Source: Escherichia coli
Lineage (GTDB): Bacteria; Pseudomonadota; Gammaproteobacteria; Enterobacterales; Enterobacteriaceae
Reading direction: 5' to 3' (one strand)
DNA length: 64,000 nucleotides
Assembly: GCF_003018115.1 (NCBI RefSeq)
Contig: NZ_CP027457.1
Shown here: positions 42,901-45,900 of the stretch, one piece after another
Position numbering within the stretch: the stretch's first letter is position 1
Layout: each line of letters starts with the position of its first letter
Program-made: the position numbers

Positions 42901-45900
42901 GCATTAGTCATTGCCCAGGACATGCCCACGGAAAAACCGATCAACAGTAATACAATCGAAGTGGTAACAACCGACTCCAGAATCAGTTTGGGTAAATGGC
43001 GCCATTTTACTTCCCGGTAAATCAGCACCGAGAGAATAAATGTGTAGACAACGGCAATTGCTGACGCTTCAGTTGCGGTAAAAATGCCGCCCAGAATGCC
43101 GCCCATCACAATGAACACCAGAAGCAAACTTGGTAAGGCATCCAGAAACGCTTTACAGGACTGAGCAAAGGTTGCTCTTTCTGAAAGCGGGTAGCCACGG
43201 CGTTTAGCAATAATGCCGCAGACTATCATTACCGCAAGACCCATTAAGATCCCTGGCAAATATCCCGCCATAAATAGCGATGCTACAGAAACGCCGCCAG
43301 CTGTCAGGGAAAACACAATTAACACGTTTGAGGGCGGTATCAGTAATCCAGTAATACAAGATGAGACGTTTACAGCGGTAGAAAATGCCGGATCATAACC
43401 TTGTTTGGTCTGAATGGGATTCAGTGTGCCACCAACGGCAGCAGCTGCCGCAACGGCTGAACCAGAAATGGAACCAAACATCATATTCGCCAGGACGTTC
43501 ACATGACCAAGTGAACCAGGAACCCGACCAACCATTACCTGGGCGAGGTTAATCAAACGTATCGCAATACCGCCGCTGTTCATCAGCGTTCCGGCAAAGA
43601 TGAAAAAGGGGATTGCCAATAGGGCAAAGTTATCCAGTCCATTAGCCAGTCGCTGCGAAACAGTGATTGCCGCGATATCCCAGGGAAACATCAAAAGCAT
43701 TGAAGCTACAGTGGCAATACCGATTGAGAACGAAATGGGCATACCAATAAAGACCAACACAAAAAAACAGCCAAACAGTGTAATCGCGATATAACTATCC
43801 ATTAACTGGCCTCCTGCGCATGTTGTTTCAGTTGTTGAATGCTTTGATTAATAAAACACAAGGCATAAAACATCATCACCAATCCACTTAATGGCAGAAT
43901 GATATATACGTATCCCATCGGTATTTGCATCGCGGCAGATACCTGTGATGTTGCCAGCGTTTTATCAATTAATTTCAGGCCACCAGTCACAATGACCGAA
44001 CCGGCAAAACCTAAAATAAGAACGTTAATGACTATACTAAGAAGTAATTGCTTGCGCTTATTCAGGGCGAGAGCAAATAAATCGATAGAGAGATGTCTCT
44101 GCGCGCCGACGGTATATGCAGCACCTAATAACCCTACCCAGATCATCAAAAATCGTGCCAGCTCATCGGTTAATGTACTTGGCTGGTTAAGTACGTAGCG
44201 GCTAAATACTTGCCAGACTACGCATACAACCAGAGCAAGCATGACGGCGACAGAAAACGCGGCAATGACGCGGTCTACCGCAAGTTTCAGGCGGTTAAAT
44301 ATCATTGTAAGCATCCTGGAAAATCAGGGCCAGAGACTGGCCCGGAATATTATTGAGCAGCGTTGTCGAACTTCTCTAACAAAGCAGCTTGTTTTGGATC
44401 TTTTTTGAAGTCGTCAAACAGAGGCTGAACTGCGGCACGGAATGGTGCTTTATCCACTTTTACAATTTCACCCCCCATAGCTTTCGCCTGAGCACGTGTG
44501 TCAGCGTCAATTTTTTCCCACAATTTTTGTTGATAAGCTTCGGATTTCTTCGCTGCTGTTTCGAGGATTTGTTGCTGTTCTGGGGTTAATTTATTCCATG
44601 TTTTGGTGGAGATAACCAAAAAGTCAGGAATTGAGGCGTGTTCATCTTCAGAAAAAACTTTGGCAATTTCAATATGTCGAGTCTGCACCCAGGAAGGCAC
44701 GTTATTTTCTGCGCCATCTACTACACCTTGCTGCATCGCAGTATAAACTTCGCCAAATGAAATTGGAGTGGGTGAACCACCCATCAGTTCAATCATTTTG
44801 ATGGTGGTCGGACTTGGCTGAACACGAATTTTCAGCCCTTTAAGATCTTCTGGCTTAGTAATCGGTTTTTTCGCATAGAAACTGCGTGTACCCGCTACAT
44901 AAGCTGATAAAGCAAAAAAGCCTTTGTCTTTTGTTGAGTCCATAATTTCTTTACCAACTTCACCAAAAACAACTTTGTTGAAGTGAGCCTGATCTTTAAA
45001 TAAGAACGGCAAATTATAGATAGCATAAATATTATCAAAAGACTCCAGATCACTGGCGGAACCTTTGGTCATATCCAGAGCGCCATTTTGCAACAACTCC
45101 ATAGTTTCTCGCGCATTACCCATCTGGCTGCTGGGATAAATACGGATCACCATATTACCTTTTGACATCTGTTTTACCTCTTTCGCCAGCTCTTCAAAAC
45201 TCTGATGTACAACATGACTTCTTTCCAGGTTGTGTGCTAACTTTAACGTCACTTTTTCTGCGGCGTTTACGCCAGTGCTAACCAGAGCCAGCAAGGATGC
45301 GCAGACTAATGAGCGGGTAAATGACCTCATTTTCATAAAAAAACTCCCTGTTGAAGGATGGAAATTGGTTGATATCTAATTGTGCTTATCAGTGCTTTGT
45401 GCGACAAATTGGTTAACCTGTCTGACAACTTGTCTATGTTTATCACAACTTGAAATAAAGTCAGAAATTAAATATTAAATTTGTGCGCCAGGTTGTACAT
45501 GTTTATAATCAATAAATGACGAGTAAATATTCACTATATATATATAATAAATATCGTCGATATTTATTCAGTAAGAAATATATTTTGCCGAAGTTAATTA
45601 ACGGGGGGGGGGAAGAAGTGATTAATGCGCCCGCAGACGCATTAATGATTACTCAGCGAGGAATAATTCAAGAAGTGAGTTTAAGAATAATTTACCATGT
45701 TCCGTTATCTGCCAGTAATCCGCACATTCGGTGAGATAACCCTGGGCAATCGCCTCGTCTAACTGTGGGCGAATCACATCTTCGCAAAGCCCGGTATACG
45801 CAATAAACTCCACGCGCGGCGCGGCCTCCAGCAGACGGAAGCGATTCATAAAGAACTCAAACGGCTTATCTGCGGCTTCGACATCACGCTGGCTTTCCAG

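What the first reader, a model, noticed from the sequence alone, without database searches (positions are those of the whole stretch)
45590..45650. G10 tract and hairpin at the hemW / TRAP-operon junction
Immediately after the hemW stop there is a 9-bp-stem hairpin (ATTAATGCG...CGCATTAAT) and then a run of ten G, with a (TA)6 run about 60 bp further on (45535-45546). Homopolymeric G/C tracts of this length are rare in E. coli intergenic DNA and are prone to slipped-strand length change. The tract lies where a promoter or the insertion junction for the TRAP genes would be expected, so its length could modulate TRAP expression or simply mark the junction; it could also be a sequencing or assembly artefact.
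Basis: seen in the sequence. Interest (0 to 1): 0.4.

Follow-up and report, generated by a model that had tools for sequence, protein, structure and literature searches.

The report
Hypervariable poly-G tract after hemW terminator
The run of ten G is a real, slippage-prone repeat whose length differs between E. coli isolates (4 to 15 G), but it lies just after the hemW terminator hairpin and far from the conserved control region of the TRAP transporter genes, so it is most likely a neutral mutational hotspot rather than a genetic switch.

Summary
In detail: G10 at 45603-45612, a hairpin at 45621-45646 two bases after the hemW stop, and (TA)6 at 45535-45546. The tract is not an artefact. The intergenic region occurs in about 1480 of 5426 complete E. 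coli genomes. In the 504 that carry this allele, the tract is G4, G8-G13 or G15, or a fixed interrupted form G7AG6. Three strains with no substitutions in 906 flanking bases carry G9, G11 and G13. The other common allele has a stable G6 or G7. The hairpin is the hemW intrinsic terminator: the G6 allele passes a terminator scan, and other genera have their own hairpin at the same place. In this window the C-run on the hemW strand has replaced the distal Ts of the terminator tail. The hemW-to-TRAP gene order is conserved in Citrobacter, Klebsiella and Kluyvera, so K-12 lost these genes and this strain did not gain them. Conserved promoter and operator-like blocks lie within about 160 bp of the TRAP start codon, 110 bp or more from the tract. 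No long tract exists in other genera or other E. coli alleles. Verdict: an ordinary hypermutable homopolymer, probably neutral. A modest effect on terminator read-through cannot be excluded.

The parts
45603..45612 (.). G10 homopolymer (C10 on the hemW/TRAP coding strand), a hypervariable simple-sequence repeat
   Evidence: establish the tract. Among isolates its length is G4, G8, G9, G10, G11, G12, G13, G15 or G7AG6.
45621..45646 (-). Stem-loop two bases after the hemW stop codon, read as the hemW intrinsic terminator hairpin (11 pairs including one G-U, 4-nt loop)
   Evidence: The RNA fold gives -18.8 kcal/mol, z = -2.85. The B2-like allele is called terminator-like with tail CACTTCTTTT. Terminator-like hairpins sit at the same position in C. 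braakii and K. oxytoca, and the alignment shows the positional match.
45613..45620 (-). Proximal terminator tail CACTTCTT. In this allele the distal Ts (TTTA in other alleles) are replaced by the C-run.
   Evidence: Alignments. The window fails the T-tail criterion of the scan, whereas L009 passes.
45649..46785 (-). hemW (radical SAM heme chaperone)
   Evidence: ORF list, RefSeq annotation of the identical strain, and NCBIfam TIGR00539 at 469 bits.
45535..45546 (.). (TA)6 run, also length-polymorphic: (TA)5 in some strains and interrupted in B2-like alleles
45546..45568 (.). Perfect 11-bp inverted repeat AATAAATATCG-t-CGATATTTATT. Its function is unknown and it is not conserved outside Escherichia.
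   Evidence: (repeat I7).
45395..45494 (-). Cross-genus conserved regulatory blocks of the TRAP operon, including ExuR/UxuR-like operator sequences at 45406-45432 and a GCGCACAAA box at 45477-45494
   Evidence: Alignment of 25 sequences from about 8 genera, comparison with K-12 hexuronate operators, and the UxuR site sequence in PMC8092373.
44350..45336 (-). TRAP substrate-binding protein (DctP family)
43802..44314 (-). TRAP small permease
42501..43802 (-). TRAP large permease (DctM)

Best explanation
The G10 is a hypermutable mononucleotide repeat in non-coding DNA. It changes length by replication slippage and has no dedicated function. It lies in the poorly conserved spacer between the hemW intrinsic terminator (the hairpin) and the regulatory region of the downstream TRAP transporter operon. 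In one E. coli haplotype, typical of B1-type and STEC strains, a short G6 run next to the terminator tail grew past the length at which slippage becomes frequent. It has since drifted between about 8 and 15 G, except where a G-to-A interruption (G7AG6) froze it. Shown: the length polymorphism, the contrast with stable short or interrupted alleles, the position relative to the hairpin and the conserved blocks, and the ancestral hemW-TRAP gene order. Inferred: that the hairpin terminates hemW transcription, that the TRAP promoter lies in the conserved proximal blocks, and that tract length has no selected effect.
For: 1. Three strains (L003, L004, L006) have no substitutions in 906 flanking bp but carry G11, G9 and G13.
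2. A systematic sample of 60 of the 504 genomes with this allele gives spans that correspond to G8 x1, G9 x2, G10 x9, G11 x11, G12 x11, G13 x10 and G7AG6 x12, plus G4. Nine of these lengths were verified by sequence. This is a broad, unimodal spread, as expected from drift.
3. The interrupted allele G7AG6 was identical in all 3 sequences fetched (L007, L086, L087). The G6 allele is uniform in 15 of 25 metagenome contigs. Instability therefore tracks the length of the uninterrupted run, matching the exponential dependence of indel rate on run length reported for E. coli (PMC8510543).
4. No long tract exists in the divergent E. coli allele, which reads GCGGGC (L011, L015), or in any of 22 other Enterobacteriaceae loci at this position.
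5. The tract is 267-276 nt from the TRAP ATG and 110 nt or more beyond the most distal conserved block. No promoter hexamers flank it.
6. There was no Rfam match.
7. The + strand ORF that crosses the tract is broken in most alleles.
Against: Neutrality is inferred, not measured. In this allele the C-run has replaced the distal T residues of the terminator tail, so some effect on hemW termination and read-through into the TRAP genes is plausible. The TRAP promoter has not been mapped. Simple sigma-70 scans did not place a promoter in the conserved blocks either. Homopolymer lengths in long-read assemblies can be wrong by one base, so part of the plus-or-minus-1 spread may be technical.
Confidence: 0.75

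Rival explanations
1. The tract tunes terminator read-through. By replacing the distal U residues of the hemW terminator tail with C, it weakens intrinsic termination. Alternatively, as a C-rich, G-poor stretch, it offers a Rho loading site on read-through RNA. Tract length would then heritably and stochastically change how much hemW-operon transcription runs into the TRAP genes.
For: The window allele fails the T-tail criterion, with tail CACTTCTTCC, while the G6 allele passes with CACTTCTTTT. The tract starts 9 nt after the stem, close to where release would occur. The 78-nt window after the hairpin has a C/G ratio of 3.3 on the transcript strand, almost entirely because of the tract.
Against: The 8 tail bases nearest the stem are unchanged. 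Length changes add or remove C only at positions 9 or more after the stem, and their effect there was not tested. About 270 nt of AT-rich DNA lies between the tract and the TRAP start. The TRAP operon has its own conserved regulatory blocks. The long tract is confined to one haplotype and is absent in other genera, which is not what a conserved regulatory device would show. No expression data were available.
Confidence: 0.12
2. The tract is a promoter-proximal rheostat or phase-variation element for the TRAP operon. Its length would set the spacing or helical phasing of promoter or activator elements, as in Bordetella fim or Helicobacter sabA.
For: It is upstream of the TRAP genes on the same strand and is length-variable. 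A weak promoter-like match (TCGACG-16-TATAGT, 9 of 12) lies at 45560-45533 and includes the polymorphic TA run.
Against: The tract is outside any predicted hexamer pair. The only DNA upstream of it is the hemW terminator and coding sequence, so there is no partner site to phase with. The promoter-like match is at chance level (2 found against 1.8 expected). That match is lost in the B2-like allele and would have a 14-nt spacer in (TA)5 strains. Conserved blocks are 110 nt or more away. Two thirds of TRAP-carrying E. coli have only G6 or G7.
Confidence: 0.05
3. The tract is a sequencing or assembly artefact, or merely a scar marking the insertion junction of a TRAP island.
For: Homopolymers are error-prone in long-read assemblies. 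The tract is 36 bp from the point where K-12 and this strain diverge. The TRAP segment has lower G+C (about 43%) than its surroundings.
Against: The tract is present in 504 genomes and in metagenome contigs, at lengths spanning 4 to 15. Two assemblies of strain 97-3250 agree on G11. The hemW-TRAP(-yggM) gene order is shared by many genera, so there was no insertion here. The three-gene segment carries no integrase; flanking direct repeats were not looked for.
Confidence: 0.03

Closest known systems
Hypermutable mononucleotide simple-sequence repeats (slipped-strand mispairing hotspots), as described in E. coli mutation-accumulation studies and homopolymeric-tract surveys (PMC8510543, PMC8928963)
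   Same: It is an uninterrupted G/C run well above the usual E. coli length. Length polymorphism far outpaces point substitution. It is stabilised by an interrupting base. It is intergenic.
   Different: At 10 G (up to 15 in other strains) it is longer than the 8-bp G.C runs that PMC8510543 calls outliers in K-12. This specific locus did not appear in the papers searched.
Promoter-located poly-G/C or poly-T contingency tracts, from established knowledge: Bordetella pertussis fim2/fim3 poly-C, Neisseria meningitidis porA/opc, Helicobacter pylori sabA T-tract rheostat
   Same: It is a variable homopolymer upstream of a gene for a surface or uptake system, on the same strand.
   Different: It is not between or next to promoter hexamers or a regulator site. 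It lies about 270 nt from the start codon, immediately after the upstream gene's terminator. It is not conserved as a long tract across the lineages that carry the operon.
Rho-independent terminators at the 3' end of operons
   Same: The hairpin lies 2 nt after the hemW stop. It has a G+C-rich core and a T-rich tail in sister alleles, and equivalent hairpins occupy this position in other genera.
   Different: In this allele the distal part of the T tail has been overwritten by the C-run, so it no longer meets a simple consensus for the tail.

Membership tests
Hypermutable mononucleotide SSR (slippage hotspot) | Uninterrupted homopolymer clearly longer than the genome norm | tested here: met
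   G10 is the only G/C run longer than 6 in 64 kb. It is expected 0.06 times per window.
Hypermutable mononucleotide SSR (slippage hotspot) | Length differs between closely related isolates while the flanks stay identical | tested here: met
   L003, L004 and L006 have 0 substitutions in 906 bp but carry G11, G9 and G13. O111:H8 strains carry G11 to G13.
Hypermutable mononucleotide SSR (slippage hotspot) | Short or interrupted versions of the same tract are stable | tested here: met
   G7AG6 was identical in 3 of 3 fetched loci, and 12 sampled genomes have the same span. The G6 allele is uniform in 15 of 25 metagenome contigs.
Hypermutable mononucleotide SSR (slippage hotspot) | Length heterogeneity within a clonal culture, or a measured switching rate | not testable with these tools
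   This needs read pile-ups or fragment-length analysis of single-colony lineages.
SSR-controlled phase-variable (contingency) locus | Repeat lies inside the reading frame, the core promoter or a regulator site of the controlled gene | tested here: not met
   The tract is 267-276 nt upstream of the TRAP ATG and 8 nt after the hemW hairpin. No hexamers flank it. The + strand ORF across it is not conserved.
SSR-controlled phase-variable (contingency) locus | Long repeat maintained across the lineages that carry the gene | tested here: not met
   About two thirds of TRAP-positive E. coli have G6 or G7. The divergent allele and the other genera have no long tract at this position.
SSR-controlled phase-variable (contingency) locus | Expression state changes with repeat length | not testable with these tools
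   No expression data were available.
Rho-independent terminator (the hairpin) | Stable G+C-containing stem-loop just after the stop codon on the coding strand | tested here: met
   11-pair stem, -18.8 kcal/mol, z = -2.85, 2 nt after the TAA.
Rho-independent terminator (the hairpin) | T/U-rich tail directly after the stem | tested here: inconclusive
   The window tail CACTTCTTCC fails the scan. The sister allele tail CACTTCTTTT passes. C. braakii has TTTCTTCTAC.
Rho-independent terminator (the hairpin) | Mapped RNA 3' end | not testable with these tools
   This needs Term-seq or 3' RACE in a TRAP-positive strain.
Genomic-island insertion junction | Segment absent from related taxa and bounded by mobility genes or repeats | tested here: not met
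   The hemW-TRAP gene order is conserved in Citrobacter, Klebsiella, Kluyvera, Pseudocitrobacter and Phytobacter. The segment holds only three transporter genes. K-12 has REP elements in its place.
Rho utilisation (rut) site | C-rich, G-poor stretch of transcript of about 70-80 nt | tested here: inconclusive
   The C/G ratio is 3.3 in the 78 nt after the hairpin, but almost all of it comes from the tract itself, and the rest is A/T-rich. Dependence on Rho is not testable here.

The most novel reading that the evidence does not exclude
In B1/STEC-type E. coli the poly-C run at the end of the hemW terminator acts as a heritable, stochastic rheostat. Its length sets how much hemW-operon transcription escapes intrinsic or Rho-dependent termination and reaches a (probably hexuronate) TRAP uptake operon. 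That would be a terminator-embedded contingency element in a species generally thought to lack SSR-based switches.
Probability: 0.08. Interest if true: 0.6.

Novelty: new member of a known kind. Interest (0 to 1): 0.28.

Why it matters
As it stands the finding is mostly bookkeeping. It explains an odd-looking tract and corrects the 'TRAP insertion' reading: these genes are ancestral and were lost in K-12. It also shows that the hairpin belongs to hemW. The tract has some practical uses. It is a natural, highly polymorphic marker within clonal STEC lineages. It could serve as a built-in reporter of slippage or mismatch-repair status. It is a place where assemblies are likely to disagree. It would become biologically interesting only if tract length were shown to change read-through into the TRAP operon.

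Tried and rejected
- **Rfam:** a permissive search of 45200-45800 found no RNA family.
- **+ strand ORF 45516-45734:** this 72-aa ORF, in frame through G10, is interrupted by stops in G9, G11, G15, B2-like and divergent alleles. It was rejected as a gene.
- **Promoter scans:** they gave only chance-level hits around the TA run. No promoter could be placed by consensus in E. coli, C. braakii or K. oxytoca. The statement that the promoter lies elsewhere therefore rests on cross-genus conservation, not on a mapped start.
- **Literature on the locus:** a search for TRAP transporter + yggM in E. coli returned nothing. The Escherichia homopolymer survey does not mention hemW or TRAP.
- **Ligands of the nearest solved binding proteins:** attempts to confirm them from the literature failed because the papers are not held. 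The hexuronate assignment rests on my memory of those PDB entries plus operator similarity.
- **G-quadruplex:** considered and rejected by reasoning. A single G10 cannot supply four G-runs with loops.
- **Mobile element:** the hairpin is single-copy, with 1 place per genome, so it is not a REP-like element.

Full report
**What is in the sequence**

The window has ten G at 45603-45612. It also has an inverted repeat, ATTAATGCG at 45621-45629 and CGCATTAAT at 45638-45646, and a (TA)6 run at 45535-45546. All the genes here are on the - strand:
- hemW, 45649-46785, with its stop codon at 45649-45651.
- A three-gene TRAP transporter operon: binding protein 44350-45336, small permease 43802-44314, large permease 42501-43802.

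These assignments come from the ORF list, the RefSeq annotation of a strain identical over the 312-bp query and NCBIfam.

Read in the direction of transcription, the order is: hemW stop, 2 nt, hairpin, 8 nt (CACTTCTT), C10, then about 267 nt of A+T-rich DNA, then the TRAP start codon. The G10 is the only G/C run longer than 6 in the 64 kb window. Shuffles predict 0.06 such runs per window. In E. coli generally, G/C tracts of 6 or more average 6.2 nt (PMC8928963), and 8-bp G.C runs are described as outliers in K-12 (PMC8510543).

**Is the length variable?**

Yes. The 312-bp intergenic region is present in 1476 of 5426 complete E. coli genomes. Sequences fetched from individual strains show G6, G7, G9, G10, G11, G12, G13, G15 and G7AG6 at this position, and later G4 and G8.

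There are two main haplotypes.

- **Long allele (the one in this window, Gn-AAGAAGTG).** It is found in 504 genomes. An evenly spaced sample of 60 of them gave match lengths that correspond to G8 x1, G9 x2, G10 x9, G11 x11, G12 x11, G13 x10 and a 65-nt class x12. Exactly 73 of the 504 are identical to the G10 query. The 65-nt class was G7AG6 in all three cases I read (L007, L086, L087).
- **Short allele (G6-TAAAA or G7-TTAAAA).** It accounts for most of the remaining roughly 980 genomes and for 15 of 25 metagenome contigs. It occasionally expands, to G9 in L028 and G11 in L012.

A divergent allele has no run at all and reads GCGGGC (L011, L015).

Three strains (L003, L004, L006) have no substitutions in 906 flanking bases yet carry G11, G9 and G13. 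O111:H8 strains carry G11, G11, G12, G13 and G13. Two independent assemblies of strain 97-3250 both give G11, and Illumina-type metagenome contigs show G9, G10, G13 and G8AG6. Assembly error therefore cannot explain the range, although errors of one base cannot be excluded for any single assembly.

The pattern is that pure runs of 8 or more vary, while G6, G7 and the interrupted G7AG6 are stable. This is what replication slippage predicts, because indel rates rise exponentially with run length (PMC8510543).

**What is the hairpin?**

On the hemW strand the RNA folds into an 11-pair stem with a 4-nt loop, at -18.8 kcal/mol and z = -2.85.
- In the short allele the stem is perfect. It is followed by CACTTCTTTT, and the scan calls it terminator-like.
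- In this window the scan fails only because the tail reads CACTTCTTCC: the C-run has replaced the TTTA that other alleles have there.
- Citrobacter braakii has a related hairpin (GTGCGCCTGTCGGCGCAT) with a canonical TTTCTTCT tail.
- Klebsiella oxytoca has a different 15-pair hairpin at the same place.
- The 25-sequence alignment shows a genus-specific palindrome directly after the hemW stop in nearly every genus.

I conclude by inference that the hairpin is the intrinsic terminator of the yggS-to-hemW operon. It is single-copy in each genome, so it is not a REP-like element. Rfam has no match in this region.

**Junction or promoter?**

Compared with K-12, homology is lost at about 42459 on the yggM side and at the hemW stop on the other side. 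K-12 has REP elements in between. The last 47 bp or so of hemW are homologous but only about 68% identical. So the tract is 36 bp inside the segment that K-12 lacks.

That segment is not an insertion. A scan of one genome per species found hemW immediately upstream of the orthologous TRAP binding-protein gene (84-93% amino-acid identity) in Citrobacter, Kluyvera, Klebsiella, Pseudocitrobacter, Phytobacter and another Escherichia species. A yggM homologue is often found downstream. The arrangement is ancestral, and K-12-type strains lost it. IS1-mediated losses can be seen in strains A30 and CEA106S.

Aligning the hemW-TRAP spacer across genera shows strong conservation only within about 160 nt of the TRAP ATG (window 45337-45494). 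The conserved elements are a GCGCACAAA box, TGTGA, TGTCnGACA, a TGTCATACA-type box, AGATATnnACCA and the ribosome-binding site. The part that holds the TA run, the 11-bp palindrome and the tract is not conserved.

Two of the conserved E. coli boxes resemble hexuronate-regulon operators:
- 45415-45432 matches 14 of 18 positions of a sequence in the K-12 exuT-uxaC control region.
- 45406-45423 matches 13 of 16 non-central positions of the UxuR site AAATTGGTATACCAATTT. K-12's own uxuA sites score 13-14 on the same measure (site sequence from PMC8092373).

Consensus promoter scans did not place a promoter anywhere convincingly. The statement that the promoter lies elsewhere is therefore an inference from conservation, not a mapped start.

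**How it most likely works**

The best-supported reading is a neutral slippage hotspot. A short G run beside the terminator tail grew past the instability threshold in one haplotype. It now drifts between about 8 and 15 G, and was frozen where a G-to-A change split it. I put this at about 0.75.

The main rival, at about 0.12, is that the tract affects hemW termination and so read-through into the TRAP genes. The argument is that it overwrites the distal U residues of the tail and creates a C-rich, G-poor stretch (C/G = 3.3 over 78 nt). Against this:
- The 8 tail bases nearest the stem are unchanged.
- Length changes act only at positions 9 or more after the stem.
- The long tract is confined to one haplotype.

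A promoter-spacing role (about 0.05) has no partner site upstream of the tract and no conserved hexamers around it. Artefact or insertion scar (about 0.03) is essentially excluded. A 72-aa + strand ORF that runs in frame through G10 is broken in most alleles and was rejected.

**Comparison with known systems and novelty**

The tract behaves like the hypermutable homopolymers known from mutation-accumulation work and tract surveys, and it meets the tests for that class. It fails two defining tests for a contingency locus: its position relative to the controlled gene, and maintenance of a long repeat across carriers. The third test, expression change with length, could not be run.

I found no paper describing this locus. 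I file it as a new member of a known kind, of modest interest. Its uses are as a marker within clonal STEC lineages, as a caution for assemblies, and possibly as a test case for terminator-embedded repeats.

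Noticed in passing
window 45395-45494 (- strand), especially 45406-45432: The TRAP operon has cross-genus conserved upstream boxes. Two E. coli boxes resemble K-12 hexuronate operators: 14 of 18 to an exuT-uxaC sequence, and 13 of 16 to the UxuR site AAATTGGTATACCAATTT. The binding protein's nearest solved relatives are 4ovr, 4n15/4n17, 4mhf, 4mij and 4x8r. From memory these bind glucuronate or galacturonate, which I could not verify. This suggests an ExuR/UxuR-controlled hexuronate TRAP transporter that K-12 lacks.
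   Followed up: partly
window 42460-45648 versus K-12 (L018 4405-4558): K-12 has REP elements where this strain has the hemW terminator, the tract and the TRAP operon. The gene order hemW-TRAP(-yggM) is shared by many Enterobacteriaceae genera, so about 73% of complete E. coli genomes appear to have lost the operon.
   Followed up: yes
window 45649-45697 (3' end of hemW): The last 47 bp or so of hemW are only about 68% identical to K-12, all by substitution and mostly G/C in K-12 against A/T here. The rest of the gene is about 96% identical. This suggests an old recombination or divergence boundary inside the gene's 3' end.
   Followed up: partly
L002 (strain A30) about 1473-2945; L016 (strain CEA106S) 1748-2445: There are independent IS1 insertions next to hemW with loss of the TRAP operon. 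In A30 the IS1 joins at about window position 45567 and a G12 tract is retained. In CEA106S the IS1 abuts hemW, which is annotated 24 nt longer, and yggM is truncated.
   Followed up: partly
window 45535-45546: The (TA)6 run is itself polymorphic. It is (TA)5 in three STEC-type strains and interrupted (TATAAATATATA) in the B2-like allele. It overlaps a chance-level promoter-like match (TCGACG-16-TATAGT).
   Followed up: partly
window 45546-45568 and 45593-45602: There is a perfect 11-bp inverted repeat, AATAAATATCG-t-CGATATTTATT, and a 10-bp palindrome, GTTAATTAAC, directly beside the tract. Neither is conserved outside Escherichia, and their function is unknown.
   Followed up: no
window 44350-45336; loci L003-L017: The TRAP binding protein is the same RefSeq protein (WP_000784004.1) in strains of both main haplotypes, even though their intergenic regions differ by about 3.5% and their HemW proteins differ.
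   Followed up: no
window 42465-42500: A hairpin, TTGCCGGATAA...TTATCCGGCAA, followed by ATTATTTTTT lies between the convergent yggM and TRAP large-permease genes. It looks like a terminator for the TRAP operon.
   Followed up: no
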